Positions 2,941 through 35,600 of a DNA stretch of 64,000 nt are shown here, one piece after another. The DNA is taken from the IMG/VR virus record IMGVR_UViG_3300032323_001800, positions 96,001 to 160,000 of that record; one strand, given 5' to 3'. The position numbers and the translations under genes were made by a program. Source of the stretch: a virus. The notes beneath the pieces are model-generated. The model made no database searches, was not told the origin of the DNA, and saw only the letters and a program-made list of their open reading frames with translations. Numbering within the stretch: the stretch's first letter is position 1; each line of letters starts with the position of its first letter.

Positions 2941-3828
2941 ATGACGACATTAGTACAACCAAAAGTAAAATATCTAACAAATAAAGACCTTTTAAAAGAA
3001 ATACACAGAAGCAAAAACACATATTGTTCATACATACAAAAAGAGTACGGTGATTATGATCTCATTTTACCTAATTTAAGTAAAATCAATGTAAGAACAG
3101 TAGCCGAAGCTAAAAGAAATAGAGCAATATTAATGGGCAAACAAGCACATGCCCAAGCACAGCTTACAGATAAAAAAGCTTCAGCAAAAGATTTTGAAGT
3201 TGATTATAAAAAAGTTAATAAAAAAGATTTAATTTTTAGAATCATGACATTTGAACACATCCCGCTTGCTCCGGGTCGTAAAAAGACGTTAAAGAATACT
3301 GCAGACAGTCACGAAAAAGTAAATTTTCCTCCGTTCCAACATTGGAAGTTCGACGATAACGATAACCTTGTATGCGTGGGCAAAAGTCACTGGAAGGGCG
3401 ATTTATCAATTGGACAATTTAGCAAGGACCACGGTCAAATGACTAATGACCTAGCTAGGATGTTTATCAAACTATGCGAACGATATGCTACTAGAGGCAA
3501 CGTTCGAGGCTATACCTACAACGACGAAATGCGGGGACAAGCTATTTTACAACTAACTCAGATAGGACTACAATTTGATGAGAGCAAATCTAATAATCCT
3601 TTTGCTTACTATACTGCTGCTGTCACTAATTCATTCGTTAGAATTATCAACATTGAGAAACGCAATCAAAACATTCGAGACGACATTCTCGAAATGAATG
3701 GTATGAATCCAAGTTGGACTAGACAAAACAGCGGAGGGGGTGGGGCTGCATATCCTGCGTCTGGGGTTGATGCAAACTATGATGGTGGTGGTGGCGGTGG
3801 TGGCGGTGGCAGCATCGATTGGGATTGA
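2941..3828 (+). CDS. gp55: Late-transcription sigma factor, T4 gp55-like, with a large insertion
   Basis: YLTNKDLLKEI N-terminus, and LARMFIKLCERY...GYTYNDEM...FDESKSNNPFAYYTAAVTNSFVRIINIEK matching the gp55 core (NYTYxDEM, FDxxKSxNPFAYFT). It lies next to gp47/gp46 as in T4. Confidence 0.85.
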   Translation: MTTLVQPKVKYLTNKDLLKEIHRSKNTYCSYIQKEYGDYDLILPNLSKINVRTVAEAKRNRAILMGKQAHAQAQLTDKKASAKDFEVDYKKVNKKDLIFRIMTFEHIPLAPGRKKTLKNTADSHEKVNFPPFQHWKFDDNDNLVCVGKSHWKGDLSIGQFSKDHGQMTNDLARMFIKLCERYATRGNVRGYTYNDEMRGQAILQLTQIGLQFDESKSNNPFAYYTAAVTNSFVRIINIEKRNQNIRDDILEMNGMNPSWTRQNSGGGGAAYPASGVDANYDGGGGGGGGGSIDWD

Positions 3829-3853
3829 CCTTAACCTCTATAACTGTTATAAT
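3825..3853 (+). promoter_or_regulatory. Sigma70-type promoter for gp47/gp46
   Basis: TTGACC (3825-3830), 17-bp spacer, TATAAT (3848-3853). Confidence 0.8.
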
Positions 3854-3859
3854 AACTCT

Positions 3860-4870
3860 ATGAATCTATTCAAAAAAGCAGCATGTTTTACAGATATACA
3901 TTTTGGACTAAAGTCAGGCAGCAGAACACATAATACAGATTGTGAAGATTTTGTTAAATGGTTCTGCGATACTGCTCAGGCAGAAGGATGTGAAACTGCC
4001 ATATTTTTAGGCGACTGGCATCATAATCGTGCGACCACTGATGTCAGCACGATGAATTATACTGTTTCAAATTTAGAACGGTTAAGCCAGAGCTTTGAAA
4101 AAGTCTATTTCATATTAGGCAATCATGATTTGTTCTATAAAGACAAACGTGAAATTAACTCTATTGAGTTTATGCGACTATTTCCTAATGTTATTCCTAT
4201 TAAAGAAACACTCACAGAAGGTGATGTTACAATCATGCCTTGGTTAGTGGGTGAAGAATGGAAAAACATTCCTAACATTAAGAGTCGGTATATATTTGGT
4301 CATTTAGAATTGCCTAGCTTTTATATGAATGCTATGGTACAGATGCCAGATCACGGTCAATTGCAGAGCACACATTTTGTAAATCAAGAATATGTGTTTA
4401 GTGGCCACTTTCATAAACGCCAAACTGGTCGCAATATCACTTATATTGGTAATGCGTTTCCTCACAACTATGCCGATGCCGGTGACGATGATCGAGGCAT
4501 GATGATTCTAGACTGGGGCAAAGAACCAGAATATCGATCATGGCCTGATCAGCCTGTGTATAGAGTTTATAAACTTAGTCAAATTATTGATCAACCCGAT
4601 AAGCTACTTCGTGAAAAGATGCATTGTCGTGTTACTATCGATTTGCCTATCACGTTTGAAGAAGCAAACTTCATCAAAGAACAGTTTATTCCTCAATACA
4701 AACTACGTGAGCTCATGCTGATACCAGAGAAGGTAGAGGTTGAATCTAATGCGGTGTCTATCGACATTAACTTCGAATCAGTAGATACTATTGTTATGAA
4801 TCAGATCAACGCTATCGAAAGCGAAAATTACGATAAAAAAATGCTTTTGGATATCTATAAAGACTTATGA
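3860..4870 (+). CDS. gp47: Recombination endonuclease subunit, Mre11/SbcD-like
   Basis: Metallophosphoesterase motifs TDIHFG, FLGDWHH, ILGNHD, GHLE, SGHFH. Start moved from 3740 to the ATG at 3860, which avoids overlap with gp55 and lies downstream of the promoter. Confidence 0.93.
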   Translation: MNLFKKAACFTDIHFGLKSGSRTHNTDCEDFVKWFCDTAQAEGCETAIFLGDWHHNRATTDVSTMNYTVSNLERLSQSFEKVYFILGNHDLFYKDKREINSIEFMRLFPNVIPIKETLTEGDVTIMPWLVGEEWKNIPNIKSRYIFGHLELPSFYMNAMVQMPDHGQLQSTHFVNQEYVFSGHFHKRQTGRNITYIGNAFPHNYADAGDDDRGMMILDWGKEPEYRSWPDQPVYRVYKLSQIIDQPDKLLREKMHCRVTIDLPITFEEANFIKEQFIPQYKLRELMLIPEKVEVESNAVSIDINFESVDTIVMNQINAIESENYDKKMLLDIYKDL

Positions 4871-6645
4871 TTAAAATAAAAAATTTAACAGTTCGTAACT
4901 TCATGAGTGTGGGTAATCAAACCCAAGCAATTGACTTTGACAAAGGACAATTAACTCTAGTCTTAGGTGAGAACCTGGATCTAGGCGGTGACGATAGCGG
5001 AGCCCGTAATGGTACGGGTAAGACTACTATTATTAACGGCCTTAGCTACGCTATCTACGGCCAAGCATTGACGAACATTAAGCGTGATAACTTAATCAAT
5101 AAAATTAACAGCAAAGGCATGTTGGTTACTGTTACCTTTGAAAAAGACGGAGTTGAATATCACATTGAACGCGGTCGCAAACCTAATTTATTGAAGTTTA
5201 GTATTAACGGTCATGAGCAAGAGCTTAAGGATCTAGACGAATCACAAGGTGATAGTAGAGAAACACAAAAAGCCATTGACGAAATGATGGGCATGAGTCA
5301 CGAAATGTTCAAACATCTCGTAGCATTAAACACATATACCGAGCCGTTTCTATCAATGAAGGCTGCTGATCAACGTGCCATCATTGAACAACTTTTAGGT
5401 ATTACTCTTTTATCAGAAAAAGCCGATGCTCTTAAAGATTCTATTAAGATTTCTAAAGAAGCAATTGCCACTGAGAACACACGAATTGAAACTGTTAAAG
5501 TTAGTAACGAAAGAATACAGCAAAGTATCGACGCACTAATTAGAAAACAAAAGATTTGGGAAGATACTAAAGAGAAAGCTCTTGAAGATCTTAGAAAGAG
5601 TATTGATGTTTTAGAAACTATCGATATTGACAAAGAAGTTATCGCACAAAAAGCACTAGTTGAATGGAATAAAAATAAAAAAGAACATACTAATTTAACA
5701 TCTATGATTGCTAAACAAACAGCAACATTAGAAAAAGAACAAAAAAACTTAGAAAAGTTAGAAAAAGAATTAGTAAGTCTCGCCGATCATAAGTGTCATG
5801 CGTGTGGGCAGGATCTGCATGACACAAAACATGAAGATATGCTTGCTTCTAAAGTTAAACAAGTCGAAGAAACGGCAGAATCTGTCAAGGAACATTTAAC
5901 AGAACTTAACGCACTCAATGAAGCAGTATCGTTATTAGGCGAGTTGGGTGTATGTCCTAGTGTTACGTATGATAATTTAGAAGAAGCACTTAATCATAAA
6001 AATACATTAGCTGGTTTAGAAAAAGATCTTTCTATCAAAGAAGTAGAAACTAATCCATACGAAGAACAAATTACAGAACTCCAATCAACTGCTGTTCAAG
6101 AAATAGACTGGAACACAGTAAATGACTTAACCAAAGTAAAAGATCATCAAGAATTTTTATATAAACTGCTGACTAACAAAGATAGTTTCGTAAGAAAACG
6201 TATTATTGATCAAAACTTAGCATTCCTAAATCAAAGACTAACGTATTATCTTGATAAGATCGGGTTGCCGCATCTTGTTGAATTCCAAAACGATCTAAGT
6301 GTTATTATCACTCAGCTAGGACAAGATTTGGACTTTGATAATTTAAGTCGTGGCGAACGCAATAGATTAATTTTAAGTATGAGTTGGGCTTTCCGCGATG
6401 TGTGGGAAAATCTATATCATCCTATCAACTTGTTATTCATTGACGAATTAGTAGATAGCGGAATGGATGCTAGTGGTGTTGAATCAAGTATTGCCGTACT
6501 TAAAAAGATGACTAGAGAGCGAAATAAGAATGTATTTTTAATTAGCCATCGAGACGATTTAACAAGCAGGGTAAATCATGTGCTTAAAGTTATTAAAGAA
6601 AACGGATTTACTAGTTACTCTAACGATGTAGAGATTGTTGAATGA
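4867..6645 (+). CDS. gp46: Recombination ATPase subunit, Rad50/SbcC-like
   Basis: Walker A NGTGKTT, coiled coil with Zn-hook CHAC, signature LSRGE, Walker B LFIDE, H-loop ISH. Confidence 0.95.
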   Translation: MIKIKNLTVRNFMSVGNQTQAIDFDKGQLTLVLGENLDLGGDDSGARNGTGKTTIINGLSYAIYGQALTNIKRDNLINKINSKGMLVTVTFEKDGVEYHIERGRKPNLLKFSINGHEQELKDLDESQGDSRETQKAIDEMMGMSHEMFKHLVALNTYTEPFLSMKAADQRAIIEQLLGITLLSEKADALKDSIKISKEAIATENTRIETVKVSNERIQQSIDALIRKQKIWEDTKEKALEDLRKSIDVLETIDIDKEVIAQKALVEWNKNKKEHTNLTSMIAKQTATLEKEQKNLEKLEKELVSLADHKCHACGQDLHDTKHEDMLASKVKQVEETAESVKEHLTELNALNEAVSLLGELGVCPSVTYDNLEEALNHKNTLAGLEKDLSIKEVETNPYEEQITELQSTAVQEIDWNTVNDLTKVKDHQEFLYKLLTNKDSFVRKRIIDQNLAFLNQRLTYYLDKIGLPHLVEFQNDLSVIITQLGQDLDFDNLSRGERNRLILSMSWAFRDVWENLYHPINLLFIDELVDSGMDASGVESSIAVLKKMTRERNKNVFLISHRDDLTSRVNHVLKVIKENGFTSYSNDVEIVE

Positions 6646-7193
6646 AATATCAATACTATCTAATTTCAGATTTTTTAGATTGTGAAGAAATTAAAGAACT
6701 TAATCGAACATTAGAAAATAATGTTTCTAAAAATAATCAAGAAGTGCTGTTTGATGGAAACTATAAAAAAACTAGTGTTGTGTATTCTATACAACACAGC
6801 CATGTCTGGGATCAACTTGATAGATTTAGAAATATGATTCATTACACGAACAGAAATTATTTTGGATTAGATCTTTTTGAAATTTCAAAATATAGTACAG
6901 TAAATTATAATGTATATAATGGAGATGACTATGGTCAATATACATGGCATTCTGATGCTGAATTTAATCAATGTTATGACTTAAAATTAACTGCATTATT
7001 AAATTTATCAACTGAAGAGTTTTTAGGTGGTGATCTTATTTTATTTTTATCAGGCGAATATAAGATAGACGATTTTAATAAACCGGGATCATTATTAATT
7101 TTTCCAGCATGGACCCAACATAAAGTTACTCCCGTTACCAGTGGGGTTAGAAAAACGTTAAGTTTTTGGGCAGCAGGACCAAATTTGAAATGA
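6642..7193 (+). CDS. 2OG-Fe(II) oxygenase (PKHD/prolyl-hydroxylase-like)
   Basis: HxD (WHSD), KLTALLNL, GGDL, distal His (QHKVTPV) and 2OG-binding Arg (GVRKTL). Confidence 0.85.
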   Translation: MKYQYYLISDFLDCEEIKELNRTLENNVSKNNQEVLFDGNYKKTSVVYSIQHSHVWDQLDRFRNMIHYTNRNYFGLDLFEISKYSTVNYNVYNGDDYGQYTWHSDAEFNQCYDLKLTALLNLSTEEFLGGDLILFLSGEYKIDDFNKPGSLLIFPAWTQHKVTPVTSGVRKTLSFWAAGPNLK

Positions 7194-7426
7194 GCACGGA
7201 CAGTCACGATCGAATGATCAAAGCATTTCAAGAATATTTCAAATGGCAAGAGCGATTTGAATACAAAGGCTCAGACGAAGCAGGCATCAAGGCACGATAT
7301 TGGTTATCAGAAATACGTAACGAGGCATCAACTAGGCGTGTAGAAATACAAGATAAAAGAGAACAAAGAAAAGCAGCCAGAAAAGGCATACTAGGCAGAC
7401 CTCCCAAGGTAACTAAAGGTACATGA
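7190..7426 (+). CDS. Small basic hypothetical protein
   Basis: ATGA overlap with the upstream stop sets the start at 7190. It has a Lys/Arg-rich C-terminus and overlaps the next gene by 4 nt. Confidence 0.7.
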   Translation: MSTDSHDRMIKAFQEYFKWQERFEYKGSDEAGIKARYWLSEIRNEASTRRVEIQDKREQRKAARKGILGRPPKVTKGT

Positions 7427-7911
7427 CATGGATATATCAGAATCAAACTGTAGAAGAACTACCCGAAGAATGCGTGGGCTTCGTCTATGTCATTGTCAAT
7501 AATATCTCTGGTAGAAAATACATAGGCAAAAAATTAGCAAAGTTTGCAAAAACTACCTACAAAGTAGTCAAACTAAAGAACGGAACTAAGAAAAAGAAAA
7601 AAATTAGAGGCAAAATAGAAAGCGATTGGCGTGATTATTACGGTTCAAACATAGAACTTAATAAGGACGTTGAACAGCTAGGCAAAGAAAACTTCACCAG
7701 AGAAATCATCTATTACTGTAATTCTAAAGCAGAATGCAGTTACATCGAGGCAAGAGAACAATTTAATCGTAAAGTTTTAGAATCTAATGACTGGTACAAC
7801 GGTCATATACAGGTTCGAGTTCATGGCTCTCACATAATAAAATCCCAACTTTTAATAGAATCACAGACAGACCAAAGTACTACACAGGCTCAAGAGAAAA
7901 AGGCAAAATAA
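7423..7911 (+). CDS. GIY-YIG family endonuclease
   Basis: GFVY-x10-YIG motif, plus a downstream Glu helix (CSYIEAREQF) and YNG. Confidence 0.8.
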   Translation: MTWIYQNQTVEELPEECVGFVYVIVNNISGRKYIGKKLAKFAKTTYKVVKLKNGTKKKKKIRGKIESDWRDYYGSNIELNKDVEQLGKENFTREIIYYCNSKAECSYIEAREQFNRKVLESNDWYNGHIQVRVHGSHIIKSQLLIESQTDQSTTQAQEKKAK

Positions 7912-8375
7912 AGCGGTTTTTTGGCTTGCGCAGGCCTAAGTTCGTGCGCTCTAAACCTGGTCAATCGTGGTCACAGGGACGGAATTCCATGCCGCAATGG
8001 TACTCAGCAACTACCCATAATGGATGAAGATCGCTCAAAGCCTGCGATTGTGCTGTTTGAAAAGGAAAAACAAAGGTAAAATGAGGGGAGAGAAACCCCG
8101 GATTATTAGATCAGTTAGCGTTGATTTAATAATTGCCGTCATATAAAGACGCAGCTCGTGGTACAGGATGACCGCCACTGTAATGCTGTAACGCTAAGTG
8201 ATATTGTTCGACTCGGATAATGTTTTTATCTTTGCCCGGCCTGGGCAAAGTGTGACTGAACGATCTGGATAATACTTAAAATGCTTCGCATACTATAAGT
8301 ACATCAGTATTAAAGAAAGAAACAAAATGTGTTTGAGCGAAGCGATAAACACGAGTGAGCGTAAGCTCACTCTTA
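7912..8375 (+). ncRNA. Candidate large structured RNA, class unassigned
   Basis: ORF-free on the plus strand and densely paired. Stems at 8102-8133, 8230-8250 and 8353-8372 (GUAA loop); loop 8115-8122 is complementary to 8190-8197. Confidence 0.6.
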
Positions 8376-8378
8376 TAA

Positions 8379-8384
8379 TAAATA
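8379..8384 (+). promoter_or_regulatory. Late promoter TAAATA
   Basis: TAAATA 27 nt upstream of the ATG at 8412, with an AGGA SD between them. Confidence 0.55.
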
Positions 8385-8411
8385 AGACTATTATCTTGCA
8401 GGAAATATAAA

Positions 8412-9590
8412 ATGAAAATTACTGACTTAATCGTAGAACAACAATTAGATGAAAAGCCTATGGGAGCTCTATCTGGTATAGGAAATAAAATAGCTTCTAA
8501 ATTTGGTAGTGGCAAAGCTATAGGTAAGTTAGATACTGGGAAGATCGCTAACGATTTAAGAAAGCAGTTTGACATATATCTAGGAAAGACTGGAGAACCA
8601 GCTGAACCTCAAGCTATTATTGATTTCTTATCATCAATGGGGTTACCTACTGATGCTGTTAATGCTAGCTCTGCTGCTGCAACAACAACAGCTCCTGCTA
8701 AAGATATGAAATCAACATTGGGTATCGGTAAAAATGCCGGACAACCAATGGCAACACCTAATCAACCTAAACGAGTTGATCCTACATTAGATCCTAGCGC
8801 ACCAATAGCAGCACCAAATCAACCATCAAGAGTTGATCCTACATTAGATCCTGCTGCGGGTGATACAACCAACTACGATATTCCTACCTTCCAACGCAAG
8901 GGCATGGCACCTCCTGTAACACAGCCAATGGATAAAAATAAATTTAATCAATCTGCTCTTAAAGCTAGATTAAAAGCAGGCTCTGGTGCTGGAAAAGTTA
9001 AAACAGGATTTGGTGGTTACAAAGCTGCCGCGGCTGCTAAAGGACTAAAAGCAGGCATGTATGACTCTGTGTCATACGACGATCTTAAACAAGAATTATT
9101 TTTAACAGAAGCACTAAGCGGTGGGCAAATAGATAAAATATTTCTTGCTACAGCACAATTAATGGCCAAACAAGGATTTGCAGGCGGAAATAACGCAGCA
9201 GCACCGGGTTCTAGCGCAGCAGCACCATCCGGCGCATCAAATACAGCAGCACCGGGTCCAGGCAGCAATCCTCAAAGTTTAGCAAAATCATTCTTGCAAG
9301 GATATAAAGATACACCTGGTGGCCAAAAAGGACAATCTAGTGCCTTTAATAAAACACAAGATCCAAACCAAGACTTTGCTGGAAATTTAAATTTCAATCA
9401 ATTGGCAAAACTATTGCCTAACACTGATCAACAAACATTAATCAGAGCACTGCGATTAGTTATTGGTGGTGGAAAATTAAATCAACAGCAGCTAGGTGTG
9501 TTAGGTGTTGCGATGACAGACATTGTTAAAGCAGATGCCCAAACAACTACTAAAATTATGCAGACTTTGAAAAGAATTAGTGCTGAATAA
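8412..9590 (+). CDS. Low-complexity hypothetical protein, possible internal virion protein
   Basis: 392 aa, Ala/Pro/Gly-rich with internal repeats; late promoter and SD upstream. Confidence 0.6.
   Translation: MKITDLIVEQQLDEKPMGALSGIGNKIASKFGSGKAIGKLDTGKIANDLRKQFDIYLGKTGEPAEPQAIIDFLSSMGLPTDAVNASSAAATTTAPAKDMKSTLGIGKNAGQPMATPNQPKRVDPTLDPSAPIAAPNQPSRVDPTLDPAAGDTTNYDIPTFQRKGMAPPVTQPMDKNKFNQSALKARLKAGSGAGKVKTGFGGYKAAAAAKGLKAGMYDSVSYDDLKQELFLTEALSGGQIDKIFLATAQLMAKQGFAGGNNAAAPGSSAAAPSGASNTAAPGPGSNPQSLAKSFLQGYKDTPGGQKGQSSAFNKTQDPNQDFAGNLNFNQLAKLLPNTDQQTLIRALRLVIGGGKLNQQQLGVLGVAMTDIVKADAQTTTKIMQTLKRISAE
8773..8852 (+). repeat. 23-nt direct repeat with 57-nt period, encoding RVDPTLDP twice
   Basis: GAGTTGATCCTACATTAGATCCT at 8773-8795 and 8830-8852. 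Confidence 0.9.
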
Positions 9591-9805: not shown

Positions 9806-10660
9806 TCAGGAGGCGGCGCCGAAAAAATCGGCTTGGTCAAACGATAAATTAACTTGATACTGATGCTTACAATGTGGGCATTCAGTTGATAACGCATCAA
9901 TCTTTCCAGCATCTCTTGATTTAGATACAGCATCCTGTACTAAAGAAAATATCTTTTTATCTGTGTTAGCTAAAAATTCTTTAATAAACGCAGTATCAGT
10001 AACAATACCCGCAGAACATTCAATCTTGTCAATTGAATCAGACACAGTGTCTATGGTTAATTCAGTTAATTTAATAAAACTAGTTTGAAATAATTCTAAT
10101 TTTTTATCATCGGATATTGATTCATCATTGACGATTGAAAAAATTCTCTGTTGTTCAAAGGTTTTTAATGCTGTTCTTGTAATTTGATCATAGGTTAAAG
10201 GTCTGATCCAAAGCAGCATGTCATTATCTACTTCAAGACGAGTTGAAAACTCTATCTGTCTTAGGCTGTCTAATAGATTTCGAAGATCAACCATTTTTTC
10301 GTCTTGCTCATTACAGTTAGGACATGTAGTACCTACCTCCATTTCTTGACCAAATGTAGCATATCTTATAGATATTAGTACTGCATCGACGTCGATAGCT
10401 GGCATGAACCAAGGATTTTTAATATTGGGCACACAGCTTTTTATAACTTCGACCGTTGAAGCGCCATTCATAAGCGCATCCGGTGTGCGCATCAACAGCT
10501 CGTCTTTAGCAGTCATGGCAAACACCGGTAACTCTCCATTTTCCGGCATGTCTAATGCGTTTGGTGGATAGAATTTTCCTTTGCTAGGCAAGGTCATATA
10601 GATCTTTGGTTGTCTAAAAAACTGCGATAGCGGATTTTTTACCTGATTGTTTTGTTCCAT
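9806..10660 (-). CDS. gp26: Baseplate hub assembly chaperone, T4 gp26-like
   Basis: IYMTLPSKGKFY, FAMTAKDELL, DAVLISIRYATFG, two CPxC Zn motifs. Start set at ATG 10660 (GGA SD); the 59-aa extension in the track runs across the divergent promoter region. Confidence 0.75.
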   Translation of the reverse strand: MEQNNQVKNPLSQFFRQPKIYMTLPSKGKFYPPNALDMPENGELPVFAMTAKDELLMRTPDALMNGASTVEVIKSCVPNIKNPWFMPAIDVDAVLISIRYATFGQEMEVGTTCPNCNEQDEKMVDLRNLLDSLRQIEFSTRLEVDNDMLLWIRPLTYDQITRTALKTFEQQRIFSIVNDESISDDKKLELFQTSFIKLTELTIDTVSDSIDKIECSAGIVTDTAFIKEFLANTDKKIFSLVQDAVSKSRDAGKIDALSTECPHCKHQYQVNLSFDQADFFGAAS

Positions 10661-10671
10661 TTTTTTATCCA

Positions 10672-10703
10672 TAAATAAGTGTATATCTTGAAAAGTATTT
10701 ATA
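10672..10703. promoter_or_regulatory. Pair of divergent late promoters
   Basis: TAAATA on plus at 10672-10677; TATAAATA on minus at 10703-10696. Confidence 0.6.
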
Positions 10704-10739
10704 TACGTAGTTTTCAGTGAAAAATATTTAGGACTATAA

Positions 10740-13427
10740 ATGACCGGAAGAGTTGAAATATTTGGTGGGCAATTAGATGGATCAGTGTTATCCAATGCTG
10801 CTACCGAATCTACCTTAAGAGAATTAGTTAATGCCATTAACGGGGTTACTGGCGCAGGTGGTCAAGGCGGTGGCGCTGGCGGAGGTGGTAGCGGAGCTGC
10901 TGGTGGAGTTACCGGTGGGTTTAAAGGCATATCAAAAGTAGCATCAACACTAGCTGGCAGTTTAGGTTCTATGACTAAACTTGTGGTTTCTGGAAATCAA
11001 AGCTTAGGCACATTTGTAGGATCATTAAAAACCGGTATCAAAGGTATTGATAAATTTACAGATGCTGCCGCAGGATTTGTAAAATACTTTGAAGAAGCAC
11101 AGGGAACTTTAAGAGATTTAAGTAAAAACGGTGCTGCATTTAATAACAGTGTATTAGATTTAAAAGAAGCAGCCAGCACAGCTGAAATGGAATTAACACA
11201 ATTTCAAAAGGCTATTCAAATGAACGCCAAAGGATTGCTAGGATACGGTTTAACTTTAACACAGAGTGCGCAACGTGCCTCTAGAATTATCAAAGCAGGC
11301 AGCGATTCAGGTGTAACTACTGCTTTGATGAATTTGGGAATGAGTTCCGAAGAAAGCAGAGAATACATTATGGAATTTTCTGCGTCATTGGCAAAAAGTA
11401 ATAGAGTTCGTGCAACATCGGACGTAACGTTAGCACAAGCATCATTATCATATTATAAAGAACTTGATGCTATAGCAAAAATTACGGGTAAGTCACGCGA
11501 GCAGCAAGAAGAACAACTGAAAGAATTAACTGCTGAAGCAGTGTTTAAATCAAAATTAGCTAGATTAGATGTAGATAAACAGAAAGAAATTCGAATAACA
11601 ATGGCTAAGATACAGGCCAAACAAGGAATGGAAGCAGCACGAATATATAGAGACCAGATAATCGGAGTTTCAGTTCCATTAAGAAAGGCTGCTAGAATGC
11701 AGACAGCATTGTTTAGTGACTCAACAGAAGCTAATAGAAGATTAGCAGATGCTCAATTACGAGGTGTTGTTGGTCAAGAACGAATTAATGAAGTTGTGAA
11801 TAACGGAACAGTTACTAACGCAAAAGCTGCACAGGGATTAGAACATCTTGCTGCCGTAGGAGTAGCAGGTGGCGAATCTGCTGCTGCGGTAGCGGACGCA
11901 TACAAGAGTGTTGTTACACCTATTCTAGACATGGGTGAAAACGTCGATGAAGTTAGTAACGCATCGTTGACGGCTAAAGATAAAGAAGCAAAGGCAGAAC
12001 AGGAACGTATAGGAGTAATGGATAAGACCTTAAATCAATTCCAGGACGCAGTCACACGAGTTCAGGCAGCTCTTGAACGATTAAAAAATACAATTATGCG
12101 AGTAACTACTGAGGCATTAGAACCATTAATTACATGGGCTGGAGAGTTTTTTACAAAAGCATCTCATCTAGCGTCGCAGGGATTAGACAAATTAGCAGAT
12201 TGGATCGAAAGATCGTCTCATCAGTTTGGAACATATGTCGATAAATGGTGGTTTTCTATTAAAGAATTCTTTGGGCCTAAGCTTTTTGTTAAGGTAGGGT
12301 TAGTTTTAGAAAATGGATTTTTAAATATCATGGCCAATGTCATGGAAGCAATTGGAAAGCAGCTCGATAGGGTTGGGTTAGGCGGGCCTATGCTACGGGC
12401 TGCTAAAAATATGAGAGATGCTATAGTAGAAAATACCAGAGCATTTGAGGAAGCTAAGGAAGCAGAAAAGGATCAACTAACTAAAGACAAAGAAGCATTA
12501 GATGCTAGGTTGAGAGTTAGAGAAGCTGAACAAAGAGCAATTGTAGCTGCGCAGCAACAAAGAAGTGCAGGCCGGAGGGAAGCTGCTAGCGCAAGAACTG
12601 CTCCGGCAGAAGCGCAAGCAGGAGTTATTGCTCATTTACAAAAATCAGGTATAACAGATCCTAGAGCAATCGCTAACGTTCTAGCAATGATTCAGGGTGA
12701 AACTGGATTTAGACAAAGAAGTGAGGATTCGCTTGCCGGCACATCAGTTGGTGATATTAGAAATCGAATATTTAAAGGTAATCGAGGTATAGCATCACTA
12801 ACTGATGATCAAATCAACGAAATGAAAAAAGGTGATTCTGCTGGAATATACAATATTGCCTATGACGACAAATATAGAGATCCAAAACATAGACTGGGCA
12901 ATACACAATATGGAGAAGGATTTAAATATCGAGGACGAGGATACCATCAACTTACTGGCAAAGGAAATTACGCAGCAGCATCTAAAGCATTGTTTGGAGA
13001 TGATAGATTAGTTCAAAATCCAGATTTAGTTAATGATCCAAAAATAGCCGGAATGGTAGCAGGTTGGTATTACTCAACAAGCAGTCATGCTAAGGGAAGA
13101 GATCTTACTAATTTTAAAGATGTATACGGTATGACTTCGGGCAACAGTAATAACACCGCTGAGTTATCACGAAGACAGGGATATGCTGACCAATTTTTAC
13201 AACAAATGGGTCCTCAACGAATGGGAAATACCAATCAAGGACCTGCAATTACTGTACCGCCTCCACAATCATCAACAAACCAAGAATCAGCAGTAAATCC
13301 TGTTGCTAATTTAAATAGTAGTATAGACAATATGGTTGCTCTGATGCGAGAACAAATTACACAACAGAAAAATTTAGTTACTGCTGTCAAACGATTAAAC
13401 GGTAATGTACAGACATCAGTTACATAA
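10740..13427 (+). CDS. Tape measure / baseplate hub protein with C-terminal GH19 lysozyme-like domain
   Basis: Long Ala-rich helical body; the C-terminal part has IQGETGF, RLGN, YRGRGYHQLTGKGNY and NPDLV, the GH19 signature. Confidence 0.75.
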   Translation: MTGRVEIFGGQLDGSVLSNAATESTLRELVNAINGVTGAGGQGGGAGGGGSGAAGGVTGGFKGISKVASTLAGSLGSMTKLVVSGNQSLGTFVGSLKTGIKGIDKFTDAAAGFVKYFEEAQGTLRDLSKNGAAFNNSVLDLKEAASTAEMELTQFQKAIQMNAKGLLGYGLTLTQSAQRASRIIKAGSDSGVTTALMNLGMSSEESREYIMEFSASLAKSNRVRATSDVTLAQASLSYYKELDAIAKITGKSREQQEEQLKELTAEAVFKSKLARLDVDKQKEIRITMAKIQAKQGMEAARIYRDQIIGVSVPLRKAARMQTALFSDSTEANRRLADAQLRGVVGQERINEVVNNGTVTNAKAAQGLEHLAAVGVAGGESAAAVADAYKSVVTPILDMGENVDEVSNASLTAKDKEAKAEQERIGVMDKTLNQFQDAVTRVQAALERLKNTIMRVTTEALEPLITWAGEFFTKASHLASQGLDKLADWIERSSHQFGTYVDKWWFSIKEFFGPKLFVKVGLVLENGFLNIMANVMEAIGKQLDRVGLGGPMLRAAKNMRDAIVENTRAFEEAKEAEKDQLTKDKEALDARLRVREAEQRAIVAAQQQRSAGRREAASARTAPAEAQAGVIAHLQKSGITDPRAIANVLAMIQGETGFRQRSEDSLAGTSVGDIRNRIFKGNRGIASLTDDQINEMKKGDSAGIYNIAYDDKYRDPKHRLGNTQYGEGFKYRGRGYHQLTGKGNYAAASKALFGDDRLVQNPDLVNDPKIAGMVAGWYYSTSSHAKGRDLTNFKDVYGMTSGNSNNTAELSRRQGYADQFLQQMGPQRMGNTNQGPAITVPPPQSSTNQESAVNPVANLNSSIDNMVALMREQITQQKNLVTAVKRLNGNVQTSVT

Positions 13428-13441
13428 AATAGGACAATGAC

Positions 13442-15151
13442 ATGAGTTGGAAAAAACATTTTACACCTGTATCAACAGGCAAACAATCTGGATCGCTAAG
13501 TCCGTTAGGAAATGGATCGCGTCCCGGGCCAGCTCGTGCTAATTATTCCAGTTACCTACCAGATGTGTATGCAGGTACACCTAATCGTGTTGAACGATAC
13601 ACGCAGTATGACACAATGGATATGGACAGCGAAGTTAATGCTGCTCTAGACATTCTAGCAGAGTTTTGTACGCAGGCAAACAAAGAAAACAACACACCGT
13701 TTCAAATTTTCTTTAAAGGATCACCTACTTCAACTGAAGTTAAAATTCTCAAAGAAGGTCTTCAAAAATGGTCTAAGACACAGCAATTTGAAACTCGCAT
13801 GTTTAGAATTTTAAGAAGTACGTTCAAATATGGAGATATGTTTTTTATTAGAGATCCAGAAACACAAAAATGGTTCTATGTTGATCCTGCTAAAGTTGTA
13901 AAAATTATTGTTAATGAAAGCGAAGGTAAGAAGCCCGAGCAATATGTAATTCGAGATATCAATATTAATTTTAGAGATTTAGTTGCTACATCAATAGCAC
14001 CTAACACTAACTCAACACCATCAGGCACATCTTCGTATGTTAGTGGTGGTGCCTTTGGTCGCGGCATGGTTGGATCAGCTCCACAACAAACCGGATCAAG
14101 ATTTTCAACAGGGACTAATGAATTTCCAATTGATGCTAAACATATAATTCATTTAAGCATGAGTGAAGGATTAGATAATAATTATCCTTTTGGTAACTCA
14201 TTATTAGAATCAGTTTTTAAAGTTTATAAACAAAAAGAATTGTTAGAAGATGCGATTATTATCTATCGTGTCCAACGTGCTCCTGAACGTAGAGTGTTTT
14301 ACGTTGATGTAGGTAACATGCCAGCACACATGGCTATGAGTTTCGTTGAACGTGTTAAAAATGAAATACACCAAAGACGCATTCCAAGTCAAACTGGCGG
14401 CGGATCTTCAGTAGTTGATGCTAGTTACAATCCACTAAGCATTTCAGAAGACTACTTCTTTCCGCAAACAGCAGAAGGTCGTGGATCTAAAGTTGATACA
14501 CTACCGGGCGGTACTAATCTAGGTGAAATTGACGATTTAAAATTCTTTACAAACAAATTGTTTAGAGCGTTACGTATTCCTAGCAGCTATTTGCCTACTG
14601 GACCAGACGATGGCCAAGCAGCATTTACTGACGGTAAAGTAGGCACAGCATATATTCAAGAATTAAGATTTAACGAATATTGTAAAAGATTACAAAATAG
14701 CGTTATTGGTGAGTTTGATACAGAATTTAAATTATGGTTGATCAACAGCGGAATCACTATTGACAACAGTTTATTTGAACTAAAATTAAATCCCCCACAA
14801 AACTTTGCTGCGTATCGTCAATCAGAATTAGATAATGCTCGAGTACAGACTTTTGCTGCTTTACAAGAAGTTCCGTACATGAGTAAGAGATTTGCTCTTA
14901 AACGATTCTTAGGTTTAACCCAAGAAGAAATTACGGAAAACGAACGCCAATGGAAAGAAGAAAACGGTGCTAAGATTGCTGCCGATCTTGATGCAGCAGC
15001 CGAAATGCGATCAGTTGGAGTAAGTCCAGCTGGTATATCTGCTGATATGGAAGCATCAGCAGCCGAAGCACCAGACGATCTTGCTGCTCAAGCAGCACCA
15101 GCTGATGGCGGAATAGATCAAACAGCAGCACCAGCTACTCCTGCAGCCTAA
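13442..15151 (+). CDS. gp20: Portal protein
   Basis: LLEDAIIIYRVQRAPERRVFYVDVGNMP, EDYFFP, RGSKVDTLPGG, LRIPSS. Confidence 0.96.
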   Translation: MSWKKHFTPVSTGKQSGSLSPLGNGSRPGPARANYSSYLPDVYAGTPNRVERYTQYDTMDMDSEVNAALDILAEFCTQANKENNTPFQIFFKGSPTSTEVKILKEGLQKWSKTQQFETRMFRILRSTFKYGDMFFIRDPETQKWFYVDPAKVVKIIVNESEGKKPEQYVIRDININFRDLVATSIAPNTNSTPSGTSSYVSGGAFGRGMVGSAPQQTGSRFSTGTNEFPIDAKHIIHLSMSEGLDNNYPFGNSLLESVFKVYKQKELLEDAIIIYRVQRAPERRVFYVDVGNMPAHMAMSFVERVKNEIHQRRIPSQTGGGSSVVDASYNPLSISEDYFFPQTAEGRGSKVDTLPGGTNLGEIDDLKFFTNKLFRALRIPSSYLPTGPDDGQAAFTDGKVGTAYIQELRFNEYCKRLQNSVIGEFDTEFKLWLINSGITIDNSLFELKLNPPQNFAAYRQSELDNARVQTFAALQEVPYMSKRFALKRFLGLTQEEITENERQWKEENGAKIAADLDAAAEMRSVGVSPAGISADMEASAAEAPDDLAAQAAPADGGIDQTAAPATPAA

Positions 15152-20190: not shown

Positions 20191-20277
20191 ATAAAGTATC
20201 TAGAGCGTACTTATAGTAAGTAACTTATGGGGTAACCATCCTCGTAGACCTAGAACGTCAAATTAAGGAGAAACAAA

Positions 20278-20673
20278 ATGGGACGTCCATTAAGAAAAGA
20301 TATATTAGGTACTGATGTTATTGGTACATTCACAAGTGATACCGGTGTTAGAGTTGATTACCATGACGGTAGTTCTTTAGTAAGCACAGGTATTATCAAA
20401 AAACAACGTGGCGCAAAAACATTTGTATGCGCACCTAACGCAACACCTACAGATACTACATCATTTAGAACTGTTGTATTAACTAATGCTGCTGCTGGAG
20501 CACTAACAAGCGGCCAAATGAGATTAACTGGCTATGTTGGCGGCAACGCTGATTCAGGCCGTGCTCTAGCAAAGATTACAAAACGTGTGGCTGTTGATTT
20601 CAGCGGCAATCGTTATACCTGGGTTCTTGCTAACGATTCAACAAACGATTATATTGTTTTAACAGCTATCTAA
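20278..20673 (+). CDS. Putative virion structural protein
   Basis: 131 aa, beta-rich; AAGGAG SD and late promoter at 20188-20193. Confidence 0.6.
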   Translation: MGRPLRKDILGTDVIGTFTSDTGVRVDYHDGSSLVSTGIIKKQRGAKTFVCAPNATPTDTTSFRTVVLTNAAAGALTSGQMRLTGYVGGNADSGRALAKITKRVAVDFSGNRYTWVLANDSTNDYIVLTAI

Positions 20674-32653: not shown

Positions 32654-35600
32654 ATGGCAGAATTTAAATTAGGTAGATTAAGATTTGTATGGAAAGGTAG
32701 CTGGGTTACTGGTACCACATACGTTAAAGACGACATCGTAAAATACGGTGGTACAACATATGTTTGTGTATCGGGACATAATGCTAACGTCAATTTTGAT
32801 GTTGATTTAACATCATCAAGATGGGAAAAACAAACTGGCGGCCAAGAGTGGAAAACAGCCCCATGGACGATATCTACCATTTACAAAGAAGGTGATTTAG
32901 TAAAATATGGCGGTCGAGTTTATATTTGTACAGATAATCATACAGCAAGCGCAACCGTAGCAGGTGGATTTTATTTAGATGAAACCGCTAATCGTTGGGA
33001 CTTGTTTTCTGATGGTTCAGAATGGGTAGGCAATTGGCAAGTTAGTGAATATTATCGCATTGGCGATATTGTAAAATACAATGGTATTTCTTATATTTGC
33101 GTAGCTCCTCACACATCAGCAGCAACTATTACTTTAGGGTTAGAAGCAGACTACGCCGACGACAGTACTACAAAGTGGGAAAAGTACGTAGAAGGATTTA
33201 AATATCGCGGTGAGTGGAACGGATCTAGTGATCCGCTTTCAAGAACATCAACTAGATATATTGTAAATGACGTTGTTAAATTTGGTGCTAGTCTTTACAT
33301 ATGCGTTGAAGCACATACAAGTAATGCTACTGCGTTTGAAGAACTTAAATGGGATCTATTTGTAGCAGGTTTAGAATATGAAGATACTTGGTCAGCATTG
33401 ACAGAATATCAAACTGGTGATATTGTTTCATATGGTGGTTATGCGTATGTTGCAGTAAGAAGAAATACCTCACAAATCCCCCCAACCGCAACATCTGATT
33501 GGGATTTATTAACCACAGGTTTTAATAATCGAGCAAGATATGTATCTTCTCAAAGTTATAAGGTAGGTGATTTAGTACAGTACGGCGGCAATGTCTTTGT
33601 TGCCTCTGTAGAAATAACATCAAACGAAACCCCATACAGTGCTAATGCTAAGTGGTCAAAAATCATAGACGGTTTTAGATGGAACAATGATTGGGATTCA
33701 GCATTTGCTGAGACAAAATATAAAATTGGTGATGTGGTAAAATATGCGTCATCTACTTATATTTGTATTGACGAACATATACCTGCCGATGAAACTGTAA
33801 TCACAATTACAAACACCACTACTGGCACAAATCATATTACTACTTCTGATAATACTTCTACACTAAATCCAGGTCAGCCAGTAAGCTTTTCTGGCACAGC
33901 ATTTGGCGGTATCAACGCAACAATCGAGTATTATGTTAAAACAGTAGTTAATGGTACAACATTTACTATATCTGAAATTAAAAGCGGTCCAACTAAGGTA
34001 TTGAGTACTGCTTCTGGTTCATTGGCTATGAGTTACAGCAACAGACCAGATACAGACAACGGTGACTTTTGGAATTCGTTGGCAGAAGGTGACGCTAACA
34101 ACGTTCTAACACGTCGAGGAGATTTAGTAACCCGCAATGCTATCCAAAACGTTAAGTTAGCCAAAGGTGCTGAAGGTACTGTATTAAAAGCAGGCGCAAG
34201 AGATTTACAATGGGGCAAAGTTGGCGACTTAACTAGAATTTTTTACGTATCCATTGACGGACAAGATGGTGTCGGCCGAGGAACTACTTGGGATGATCCG
34301 TGGAGAACCGTAAAATATGCCTGCGAATTTGTTCAAGCACAAGGATTTAATACTAGAGATACTCCAGTAACCATTAACATTAAAGCAGGTGTATATCAAG
34401 AAATATTTCCAATTAGTATTCCTAAATACACATCTTTAGTCGGTGACGAATTACGTATGAGTATTATAGAGCCGACAGCAGCAACGTCCGGCAATGACAA
34501 GTTCTACATGAGAGATAGTACCACAGTTCGAAACTTTACGTTCCGCGGAGCAACTGGTGCTAATTTACCAGACGGTACAACAGATACATTTACTGAACCT
34601 AATCAATATCTAACTAGACGCCCAACTGGCGGCCCATGGTGTTCATTAGATCCAGGAACCGGTCCAAACGACGAAAGTGTATGGGTAGGTGAGCGTTCTC
34701 CTTACATTCAGAACGTAACAACCTTTGGTGATTATGCAGTGGGTCAAAAAATTGACGGTGCTCTACACAACGGCGGTAATAAATCGATTACGTCTAACGA
34801 CTTTACACAGGTTATGAGTGACTCTATTGGTGCTTGGTGTACCAATCAAGGTCGAGCAGAATTAGTTTCCGTATTTACATACTATGGTTATATCGGATAC
34901 CTGTGCGAAAACGGCGGTGTTATTCGAGCTACAAACGGTAACTGTTCATATGGTTCGTTTGGTGCTGTATCTGAAGGTGTTGATCCTACAGAAATTTCTA
35001 GAACTGCTACTGTTGATAACCGAAGATTAAATGCTACAGTTGATAGAGTGCAGACTGACGGTAATCAAATTTTATATGTAGAATATTCAAACGCAGGTGA
35101 GGAATATACAACAGCAACATACGGTTTTACAGGAACTGGTATATTTGACTCTGTTACCTCAATACCAGATATTGTTGACGGTGGTGTCTGCGAAGTTCGT
35201 ATCGTTGATGACGGAAATGATTATCTATCTGTTCAGGGCAATGCACAAGCCGGAACTAACATAGATATTAGATTAGCGGCTGCTGATACAACTATTACAA
35301 ACGGATATATTGGCGAACGAATAATTCTAATCGACGGCCAGGGAGTTGGCCAATACGGATATATTACCAGCTTCGACGGTGGTTCTAAATTAGCCACAGT
35401 GGCTAGAGATACATTTGATACCCTAACAATTACTAATACAACATCTAGCACAAACGTAGTTACAGTTGCTGATACAACATCACTTTTTGCCGATATGCCA
35501 TTTACTGTAACAGGTACAGCGTTTGGTGGCCTTGATGTTGGAATACAATATTATGTCAAGGCAGTAGTTAATAGTGCAACATTTACAGTATATACTAACA

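What the first reader, a model, noticed from the sequence alone, without database searches (positions are those of the whole stretch)
7912..8375. About 460-nt densely structured, probably pseudoknotted non-coding RNA after the GIY-YIG gene
Seen: the only long ORF-free stretch in a tightly packed genome, visibly more GC-rich and full of helices. These include GCGCA/TGCGC near 7928-7949; ATCGC/GCGAT; GGGG-agagaaa-CCCC; a 13-bp stem ATTATTAGATCAG/TTGATTTAATAAT (8102-8133, with G-U pairs that fix the plus strand); CGTC/GACG; ATTGTTC/GAACGAT enclosing GATAA/TTATC and CTTTGCCC/GGGCAAAG (8230-8250); GTGTTT/AAACAC; and GAGTGAGC-GTAA-GCTCACTC (8353-8372). The loop region TTAGCGTT (8115-8122) is exactly complementary to AACGCTAA (8190-8197), suggesting a pseudoknot or a switch. 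A T-loop-like GTTCGACTC occurs near 8206. I cannot match it to a tRNA, tmRNA, RNase P or intron core. Inference: a large ornate phage ncRNA (comparable in kind to GOLLD/ROOL), a nuclease-associated RNA, or an origin/primer RNA.
Basis: partly seen in the sequence, partly recalled or inferred. Interest (0 to 1): 0.8.

Follow-up and report, generated by a model that had tools for sequence, protein, structure and literature searches.

The report
Extended Polynucleobacter-1 twin-box phage RNA
The gene-free gap behind a small nuclease gene of this uncultured T4-like phage encodes a real, roughly 460-base, multiply knotted non-coding RNA; only its first third is catalogued (the orphan Rfam motif Polynucleobacter-1), the rest shows one 7-letter word twice, and its function is still unknown.

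Summary
Window 7912-8411 is the only long ORF-free gap in 64 kb, and about 7913-8372 (+) is a structured RNA. On 57 aligned relatives, 97 proposed pairs are 92% paired, against 78% in shuffles and about 40% when slid; 72 pairs show compensatory changes.

It is not unmatched. 7923-8058 is Rfam RF01718 (Polynucleobacter-1) at 95 bits, a 141-nt orphan motif from 2010. Homology continues for about 320 more nt in over 200 IMG/VR contigs, and Rfam has nothing for that part.

This part holds further pseudoknots and two roughly 30-nt repeat modules. Each module ends in the same 7-nt word (GGAUAAU at 8215 and 8267). The two words are identical in 199 of 199 loci across about a dozen variants. I found no complementary partner in the RNA, its flanks or the 188-kb contig.

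The GIY-YIG gene looks like a mobile neighbour, not a partner. It is laterally exchanged, is sometimes replaced by a PD-(D/E)XK nuclease or separated from the RNA by another ORF, and is absent from one locus that has a full RNA.

Function is unknown. My best guess is a stand-alone trans-acting RNA showing two identical recognition words. This scan has already reported the same family on many other genomes.

The parts
7423..7911 (+). SegE-type GIY-YIG nuclease gene (162 aa), the upstream neighbour; stop codon TAA at 7909-7911, 1 nt before the RNA's first conserved pairing
   Evidence: Pfam PF19835 at 5.4e-31; PHROG 447 at 5.6e-36 plus homing-endonuclease PHROGs. Directly upstream of the RNA in 109/119 and 85/107 loci. 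Its descent disagrees with that of gp46 and the RNA.
7913..8058 (+). 5' domain, the Polynucleobacter-1 motif (Rfam match 7923-8058). Helices: P1 7928-32/7945-49; P2 7957-63/7968-76; P3 7987-90/7997-8000; P4 8005-09/8051-55; P5 8015-16/8022-23 with 8011-8026; P6 8029-34/8044-49. Two pairings are not in the Rfam model: 7913-7916 (GCGG) with the P3 loop 7992-7995 (CCGC), and 7924-25 with 7934-35.
   Evidence: cmscan 95.3 bits, full model 1-141. Per-helix counts. 7915-7993 is GC in 33 rows and AU in 14.
8059..8084 (+). A-rich linker with near-invariant GUUUGAA and AGG
   Evidence: Conservation in alignment A1.
8085..8133 (+). Hairpin P8 (8085-88/8096-99) and long hairpin P9 (8102-8113/8122-8133) with loop GUUAGCGU (8114-8121)
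   Evidence: All pairs show double-sided changes (helices 10 and 11).
8115..8197 (+).
   Evidence: 7 of 7 pairs compensatory, 97.2% paired (helix 12); MI.
8135..8189 (+). Core of domain 2: P11 8151-55/8185-89; P12 8158-61/8175-78; pseudoknot PK2 8138-8142 with 8168-8172 in the P12 loop (UACAGGAUGACCG); G8135-C8137 also complementary to 8244-8246
   Evidence: helices 13-16 (95-99% paired). 8140-8170 is UA in 37 rows and CG in 18. 8135-8246 is GC 47, AU 6, UA 1.
8193..8222 (+). Repeat module A, ending in twin word A (8215-8221, GGAUAAU, preceded by ACUC)
   Evidence: Direct repeat of module B. Word identical to word B in 103/103 and 96/96 loci.
8230..8250 (+). Hairpin P13, CUUUGCCC/GGGCAAAG
   Evidence: helix 17 (88% paired; compensatory changes at 3 pairs).
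8245..8274 (+). Repeat module B, ending in twin word B (8267-8273, GGAUAAU, preceded by AUCU)
8281..8291 (+). Small hairpin AUGC-UUC-GCAU
   Evidence: helix 18. Present in most relatives but not all.
8292..8328 (+). Variable A/U-rich spacer, found only in the closer relatives
   Evidence: Conservation 0.31-0.47 and gaps 33-53%.
8329..8372 (+). 3' hairpins P16 (8329-34/8347-52) and P17 (8353-60/8365-72, GUAA loop); probable 3' end or terminator
   Evidence: helices 19-22 (92-96% paired, all pairs compensatory). The terminator scan calls it only on the minus strand.
8378..8384 (+). ATAAATA, a T4-type late-promoter core for the downstream gene (ORF 8412-9590); marks the end of the RNA unit
   Evidence: Found at a fixed place in 96/163 unique tails against 9% of shuffles. 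The link to the T4 late promoter TATAAATA comes from established knowledge, not from a test here.

Best explanation
Window about 7913-8372 (+) encodes one folded non-coding RNA of about 460 nt.

Shown: it is the full-length form of the family whose 5' third Rfam lists as Polynucleobacter-1 (RF01718). It has four pairings beyond nested helices: 7913-16/7992-95, 7924-25/7934-35, 8115-21/8191-97 and 8138-42/8168-72. It also has two homologous modules of about 30 nt, each ending in the same 7-nt word.

Inferred: no sigma-70-like promoter was found, and the first conserved pairing starts 1 nt after the nuclease stop codon. The RNA is therefore probably made as the 3' end of the gp47-gp46-...-nuclease transcript. 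It would end at hairpin P17, just before the late promoter of the next gene.

Inferred: it acts as a gene in its own right, in trans. The knotted core would serve as a rigid scaffold that shows the two identical words to an outside reader that co-evolves with them.

The adjacent nuclease is a mobile, homing-endonuclease-like neighbour parked beside a conserved RNA gene. It is not the RNA's partner.

My confidence by step: real RNA and extended family about 0.95; independent of the nuclease about 0.75; the words as sites for an outside partner about 0.4.
For: - Rfam hit at 95.3 bits over the full model. All 13 relatives tested also carry RF01718, at 81-122 bits.
- Homology runs over 474 nt in close relatives and about 370 nt in distant ones.
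- Structure on 57 sequences: 92.0% paired against 77.9% shuffled and 36-42% slid; 72 of 97 pairs have double-sided changes; covariation score 0.404 against 0.168, reached by 0 of 500 shuffles.
- Twin words are identical in 103/103 and 96/96 loci. On a tree of the RNA backbone they change state at least 44 times.
- Each variable word column has its twin as best MI partner (0.69-0.90); no Watson-Crick partner appears.
- Independence from the nuclease: RNA identity against gp46 rho +0.73; GIY-YIG against gp46 rho -0.57; GIY-YIG against RNA rho -0.51. A PDDEXK_15/RusA-like ORF replaces GIY-YIG in L077/L082. An extra ORF sits between nuclease and RNA in L164/L157/L067. L014 has a full RNA with no nuclease and no T4-like neighbours.
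- GIY-YIG homologues (40-47% identity) in cultured phages lie elsewhere in the genome. In Melnitz only a 148-nt gap follows the gene. Neither Melnitz nor BUCT-ZZ01 has RF01718.
- The word differs between phages whose nucleases are at least 97% identical.
- Not a 5' UTR: the next ORF is on the opposite strand in 43 of 123 loci, and the window's downstream ORF has no homologue in related loci.
Against: - There are no expression data, so the transcript, its ends and its processing are inferred.
- No partner for the words was found: not in the RNA, not in 0.94 Mb of flanks (own word 78 against 78.9 for control words; complement 60 against 60.3), and not in the 188-kb contig.
- The word is constrained to R-S-A-U-R-A-D. 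Three fixed letters fit a structural or protein-read motif as well as free base pairing.
- The count of 44 changes may be inflated by recombination moving the 60-nt cassette, and by tree error.
- A second set of same-letter covariation (8135=8234, 8145=8247, 8148=8250) hints at alternative pairings. That would fit a switch rather than a static scaffold.
Confidence: 0.45

Rival explanations
1. Partner of the adjacent nuclease. The RNA would guide, activate, inhibit (antitoxin-like) or regulate in cis the GIY-YIG enzyme encoded just upstream, as omega-RNAs do for IscB/TnpB.
For: The nuclease gene abuts the RNA (stop codon 1 nt before the first pairing) in about 85-90% of loci with enough sequence. 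The protein is small (162 aa; Pfam model covers 3-129) with little room for a DNA-binding domain. A different nuclease occupies the same spot in L077/L082.
Against: The descent of the nuclease is anti-correlated with that of the RNA (rho -0.51) and gp46 (-0.57). Replacement by an unrelated fold leaves the RNA unchanged. Another ORF is inserted between the two in three loci. L014 has a full RNA with no nuclease. Homologous nucleases in cultured phages lack the RNA. Words differ between near-identical nucleases. No end-located variable guide segment was found.
Confidence: 0.1
2. Conformational switch or sensor at the early/late boundary. The RNA would toggle between exclusive pairings, in response to a ligand, a protein or translation of the upstream ORF, and so control read-through past P17 or the stability of the upstream mRNA.
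For: Both 8135-8137 and 8234-8237 stay complementary to 8244-8246, and 8144-8148 mirrors 8246-8250, so P13 has an alternative long-range pairing that is kept in evolution. CGUC/GACG competes with PK2. The first pairing lies within a terminating ribosome's footprint (sequence). The RNA sits directly before a late promoter.
Against: The flanking genes vary and are often convergent, so no constant gene is there to be regulated. 460 nt with four knots is far larger than known expression platforms. The same-letter covariation can equally be base triples. No ligand class is suggested.
Confidence: 0.12
3. Ribozyme or homo-oligomeric RNA assembly. The RNA would be a catalytic RNA, or an RNA-only complex like GOLLD/ROOL/OLE, with the conserved unpaired nucleotides forming an active site or subunit interfaces.
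For: More than 30 invariant and about 100 near-invariant positions, many of them outside helices. Several pseudoknots. Phage origin, like many GOLLD/ROOL copies. Those RNAs form homo-oligomers (PMC12286853).
Against: No match to any Rfam ribozyme, GOLLD or ROOL. No substrate or cleavage site is evident. Identical words (rather than complementary or palindromic ones) are not what inter-subunit Watson-Crick contacts would give.
Confidence: 0.12
4. Replication-origin or primer RNA, or a purely DNA-level element (recombination or homing target site) with no RNA function.
For: It lies beside recombination genes gp46/gp47 and a mobile nuclease. Identical 7-bp direct repeats recall the crossover cores of site-specific recombinases (my own knowledge, not tested).
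Against: Compensatory changes that keep G-U pairs on one strand show selection on an RNA fold. No recombinase or AT-rich unwinding element is conserved. The words are only 48-58 nt apart.
Confidence: 0.04

Closest known systems
Polynucleobacter-1 RNA motif (Rfam RF01718; Weinberg et al. 2010, Genome Biol 11:R31, PMC2864571)
   Same: Window 7923-8058 matches the whole 141-position model at 95.3 bits. The helices are the same. As the 2010 supplement noted, it lies downstream of a small phage-like gene ('GOS11034 / possible homology to PSSM2_218').
   Different: The catalogued motif is only the 5' third. The family as seen here continues for about 320 nt, with PK1, PK2, twin modules and 3' hairpins. 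A 5' leader pairing (7913-16/7992-95) lies outside the model. Rfam types it as sRNA and the 2010 table scored it as possibly cis-regulatory. The variable and often convergent downstream genes argue against a 5'-UTR role. In 2010 it was seen in no phage; here it is in over 200 viral contigs.
GOLLD, ROOL and OLE large ornate RNAs (Kretsch et al. 2025, PMC12286853)
   Same: The same kind of object: several hundred nucleotides, many conserved unpaired positions, pseudoknots, often phage-borne, function unknown.
   Different: No sequence or structure match in Rfam. It is smaller than GOLLD and ROOL. No tRNA genes lie nearby. Oligomerisation was not tested.
Omega-RNA/HEARO-type nuclease-associated RNAs (IscB, TnpB)
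   Same: A long structured RNA directly next to a small nuclease ORF.
   Different: The nuclease is GIY-YIG, or PD-(D/E)XK in L077/L082, not RuvC/HNH. There is no guide segment at an RNA end. The RNA and the nuclease do not co-evolve, and each occurs without the other.
Free-standing homing endonuclease genes beside conserved RNA or core genes in T4-like phages (Seg/Mob type; my own knowledge)
   Same: SegE-type GIY-YIG domain, discordant descent, turnover of nuclease types at one spot, and homologues at other classic sites such as beside ribonucleotide reductase genes.
   Different: Homing was not shown. The gene is nearly fixed at this locus. This comparison explains the neighbour, not the RNA.
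cow-rumen-2 RNA (Rfam RF02947)
   Same: A sub-threshold alignment of 8101-8196 shares a hairpin with a UUAGC loop, GCCGYCA and ACAGGAUGACC.
   Different: 23.2 bits against a gathering score of 66. It was not recovered at E<=1 in 13 relatives. Treated as unsupported.

Membership tests
Polynucleobacter-1 RNA (RF01718) | Covariance-model score at or above the gathering score (37 bits), over the full model | tested here: met
   95.3 bits, model positions 1-141, window 7923-8058, plus strand.
Polynucleobacter-1 RNA (RF01718) | Consensus helices kept with compensatory changes | tested here: met
   Helices 3-9 are 86-100% paired, and most pairs change on both sides.
Polynucleobacter-1 RNA (RF01718) | Lies downstream of the GOS11034 / PSSM2_218-like gene (2010 supplement) | tested here: inconclusive
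   It lies downstream of a small GIY-YIG gene with many cyanophage homologues. Identity of that gene with GOS11034/PSSM2_218 was not checked directly.
Cis-regulatory 5' UTR element | A constant downstream gene on the same strand | tested here: not met
   The downstream ORF 8412-9590 has no homologue in related loci. The first downstream ORF is on the opposite strand in 43 of 123 loci.
tRNA / tmRNA | Detected by ARAGORN or by Rfam models | tested here: not met
   0 genes in the window and in the 188-kb contig. No Rfam tRNA or tmRNA hit.
Group I intron with an endonuclease ORF | Intron core match and exon continuity | tested here: not met
   No Intron_gpI hit even at E<=10 in 7700-8600. The nuclease ORF overlaps the preceding ORF (ATGA at 7423-7426). 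The downstream gene varies.
GOLLD / ROOL / other Rfam large RNAs | Covariance-model match | tested here: not met
   The only gathering-score hits in the window are RF01718 and RF02980.
Nuclease guide RNA (omega-RNA type) | Co-inheritance and co-evolution of the RNA with its nuclease | tested here: not met
   rho = -0.51 between GIY-YIG and RNA identity. The nuclease is replaced in L077/L082, absent in L014 and separated in L164/L157/L067.
Nuclease guide RNA (omega-RNA type) | Physical and functional complex with the nuclease | not testable with these tools
   Needs biochemistry.
cow-rumen-2 RNA (RF02947) | Covariance-model score at or above 66 bits | tested here: not met
   23.2 bits; absent at E<=1 in 13 relatives.

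The most novel reading that the evidence does not exclude
The two identical, fast-changing 7-nt words are programmable recognition sequences. The knotted core would be a scaffold that lets the phage aim one RNA, through two identical heads, at a rapidly diverging outside nucleic acid such as a host transcript, a defence-system RNA or DNA. Retargeting would need only a change of the word. That would be a new class of phage-encoded, sequence-addressed RNA effector or decoy.
Probability: 0.15. Interest if true: 0.85.

Novelty: new variant of a known kind. Interest (0 to 1): 0.6.

Why it matters
Large, multiply knotted RNAs of unknown function are rare, and several (HEARO, ROOL, GOLLD, OLE) later proved to have unexpected functions or architectures. 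This family is common in uncultured T4-like phages, yet only a third of it is catalogued, so Rfam-based annotation misses most of the molecule and mislabels its type.

The strict identity of two 7-nt words through dozens of changes is a clear, testable signature of an unknown reader.

The locus also offers a clean natural example of nuclease-gene turnover beside a conserved RNA gene.

This scan has already reported the same family on many other genomes, so this window adds another member and some further negative tests rather than a first discovery.

Tried and rejected
1. Complement of the twin word inside the RNA (7/7 with G-U allowed): no site above the control-word level. MI over 162 unique RNAs gives no Watson-Crick partner.
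2. Strand 8200-8209 as a shared partner of both words: it pairs well only in GG and GC word types and does not follow word changes (own word better than others in 23 of 42).
3. RNAalifold's pairing of box A with box B fails for GC- and A-type words, so I rejected it (reasoning).
4. Targets in flanks: own word and its complement are not enriched against other words in 0.94 Mb or in the 188-kb contig. One 13-nt complement at contig position 75188 lies inside an ORF and is within chance expectation.
5. tRNA link: there are no tRNA genes. An anticodon-loop reading of the word fails, because position 37 would be a pyrimidine (reasoning).
6. cow-rumen-2 homology of 8101-8196 was not reproduced.
7. 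Bacterial homes: the genome-contig scan gave only phage contigs binned into MAGs, plus chance hits.
8. Cultured phages: blastn of 7400-8450 found nothing. Melnitz and BUCT-ZZ01 lack RF01718.
9. Own promoter: no sigma-70-like site on the plus strand in 7300-7912.
10. Literature: only Weinberg 2010 names the motif. No paper in the library links a GIY-YIG gene with such an RNA.
11. L028, L042, L079 and eight loci of the second scan were chance pattern hits and were dropped.

Full report
CONTEXT. The window is bases 96001-160000 of a 188-kb IMG/VR viral contig that CheckV rates about 53% complete. The genes are those of a T4-like phage:
- gp47-like phosphoesterase, 3740-4870
- gp46-like SMC/AAA protein, 4867-6645
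- 2OG-Fe(II) oxygenase, 6642-7193
- an 86-aa ORF, 7166-7426
- a SegE-type GIY-YIG nuclease, 7423-7911
- the gap
- an orphan ORF, 8412-9590
- a T4 baseplate protein on the minus strand, 9806-10837
- a T4-type portal, 13442-15151

The 500-nt gap 7912-8411 is the only gap longer than 215 nt in 64 kb. It is richer in G+C than the window (43.5% against 38%; 51% in its first 146 nt).

OBSERVATION. cmscan places Rfam RF01718 (Polynucleobacter-1) at 7923-8058 on the plus strand, at 95.3 bits against a gathering score of 37, over the whole 141-position model. Nothing else in 7700-8600 reaches a gathering score. The best remaining hit is cow-rumen-2 at 23 bits (gathering score 66), and it was not seen again in 13 relatives. 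ARAGORN finds no tRNA or tmRNA.

RELATIVES. blastn shows that homology to the window does not stop at 8058. It runs across all of 7912-8385 (77-84% identity) in close relatives and across about 7923-8290 (69-76%) in distant ones. A second, independent pattern taken from 8248-8272 found 107 further loci. About 97 of these are homologous, and every one I tested carries RF01718 at its 5' end. The 141-nt Rfam motif is therefore the 5' third of an RNA of about 370-470 nt.

STRUCTURE. On a 57-row alignment (A1; two rows are chance hits) I wrote a structure of 97 pairs in 22 helices, drawn from the Rfam model, mutual information and inspection. Counts:
- 92.0% of cells are paired, against 77.9% in column shuffles and 36-42% when partners are slid.
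- 72 of 97 pairs change on both sides.
- The covariation score is 0.404 against 0.168 (reached by 0 of 500 shuffles), and 0.07-0.09 when slid.

The non-nested pairings are:
- PK2, 8138-8142 with 8168-8172: 8140-8170 is UA in 37 rows and CG in 18.
- A leader pairing, 7913-7916 with the P3 loop 7992-7995: GC in 33 rows, AU in 14.
- 7924-25 with 7934-35.

Invariant G-U pairs fix the plus strand. Coordinates were checked against the sequence.

TWIN WORDS. Segments 8193-8222 and 8245-8274 are a direct repeat of about 30 nt. Each follows the 3' strand of a helix and each ends in GGAUAAU (8215-8221 and 8267-8273). I saw the same-letter covariation of these boxes in the MI table before consulting earlier notes.
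- Across loci the word has the form R-S-A-U-R-A-D, with about a dozen variants. The two copies are identical in 103 of 103 and 96 of 96 loci.
- On a tree of the RNA backbone with the words masked, the word changes state at least 44 times. Recombination of the cassette could inflate this count.
- Each variable word column has its twin as the best MI partner (0.69-0.90). No Watson-Crick partner appears among 162 unique RNAs.
- I found no complement in the RNA, in 0.94 Mb of flanks or in the whole contig.
- A nearby strand that pairs with the word in some types does not follow it in others.
- A second same-letter set (8135 = 8234, both complementary to 8246; 8145 = 8247; 8148 = 8250) suggests either base triples or two exclusive pairings of the P13 strands.

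THE NUCLEASE.
- The GIY-YIG gene ends 1 nt before the first RNA pairing. It is the direct upstream neighbour in 109 of 119 and 85 of 107 loci; most of the rest are contig ends or chance hits.
- Relative to the window, RNA identity follows gp46 identity (Spearman +0.73). GIY-YIG identity runs the other way (-0.57 against gp46; -0.51 against the RNA). The window's closest relatives by gp46 (70-89%) mostly carry a nuclease only 50-59% identical, while distant phages carry one 70-89% identical. The nuclease gene has therefore been exchanged laterally.
- In L077/L082 a 171-aa PDDEXK_15/RusA-like ORF sits in its place.
- In L164, L157 and L067 another ORF of 257-308 aa lies between nuclease and RNA.
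- In L014/L091 a full-length RNA (96.8 bits, matched twin words) lies between DNA-ligase/WYL/HTH genes and bacterial-type peptidase S11 and Fe-S genes, with no nuclease. This is probably a prophage end.
- Homologues of the nuclease (40-47% identity) are common in cultured Kyanoviridae but sit elsewhere, for example after ribonucleotide reductase genes. In Melnitz only a 148-nt gap follows the gene. Neither Melnitz nor BUCT-ZZ01 has RF01718 anywhere in its genome.
- The word can differ between phages with nucleases at least 97% identical.

Together this points to a mobile, homing-endonuclease-like neighbour beside a resident RNA gene, not an RNA-nuclease system.

TRANSCRIPTION (inferred).
- No sigma-70-like promoter lies on the plus strand in 7300-7912, and the fold starts right after the stop codon. 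Co-transcription with the upstream operon is therefore the simplest reading.
- After hairpin P17 comes ATAAATA (8378-8384), the core of the T4-type late promoter. It appears at the same place in 96 of 163 unique tails, against 9% of shuffles.
- The next ORF is on the opposite strand in 43 of 123 loci, and the window's own downstream ORF has no homologue in related loci. The element is therefore not a 5' UTR.

WHAT IS KNOWN. Weinberg et al. 2010 (PMC2864571) list Polynucleobacter-1 with 16 representatives from 'Burkholderiales, fresh water/estuary'. Their supplement says most copies lie downstream of GOS11034 genes, with possible homology to PSSM2_218 of cyanophage P-SSM2, that the 3' half is not always detected, and that no purified phage had it. 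No other paper in the library names the motif. GOLLD, ROOL and OLE are the nearest in kind (PMC12286853) but do not match.

EARLIER NOTES OF THIS SCAN. Earlier notes describe the same family on many other genomes as an 'extended Polynucleobacter-1 twin-box phage RNA' and reach the same open question. My results agree with them. This window's contribution is the quantified discordance of the nuclease gene, the second-scan replication of word identity, and several further negative partner tests.

VERDICT. This is a real RNA. It is a member of a known orphan family whose true extent and most striking feature are not catalogued. The nuclease is a neighbour rather than a partner. Function is unknown. 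My best guess (about 0.4) is a trans-acting scaffold that presents two identical recognition words to an outside, co-evolving reader.

Noticed in passing
window 20207-20280 (+): Rfam freshwater-2 RNA (RF02980), 58.1 bits (gathering score 49.9), ending at the start of ORF 20278-20673. A second catalogued orphan motif in the same phage.
   Followed up: no
window 7423-7911 compared with L002-L248: The GIY-YIG gene is laterally exchanged. Its identity to the window's copy is anti-correlated with gp46 identity (rho -0.57, n=141). Two allele classes, at about 55% and about 75-85% identity.
   Followed up: yes
L077:1124-1639 (-) and the same spot in L082: A 171-aa PDDEXK_15 (PF24608) / RusA-like (PHROG 244) nuclease ORF replaces the GIY-YIG gene directly upstream of the RNA.
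   Followed up: partly
L014:7500-7991 (+) and flanks; L091: A full-length family member outside any T4-like context. It lies between DNA ligase, WYL_2 and HTH_39 genes on one side and peptidase S11 plus Fe-S biosynthesis genes on the other. Probably the end of a prophage in a bacterium.
   Followed up: partly
window 8412-9590 (+): A 392-aa ORF with repeated PNQPxRVDPTLDP-like units. No Pfam or PHROG hit and no tblastn match in over 200 related loci. A lineage-specific gene between the RNA and the baseplate gene.
   Followed up: partly
window 8135, 8234, 8246 (also 8145/8247, 8148/8250): Same-letter covariation: 8135 and 8234 both stay complementary to 8246 (GC 47, AU 6, UA 1). Either a base triple or an alternative long-range pairing that competes with hairpin P13.
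   Followed up: partly
PHROG 447 / GenBank annotations under hits H6-H22: The family of small GIY-YIG proteins is widely labelled 'NAD synthetase' in phage records. This looks like a propagated misannotation.
   Followed up: no
window 9806-10837 (-) and 10740-13427 (+): The divergent baseplate and gp5-like ORFs overlap by 98 nt as listed, so the true start of the plus-strand ORF is probably further downstream. Separately, a 3089-aa ORF lies at 32654-41923.
   Followed up: no
whole contig G000 (188 kb): ARAGORN finds no tRNA or tmRNA gene in the 188 kb available, which is unusual for a large T4-like phage. The contig is only about half of the genome.
   Followed up: no
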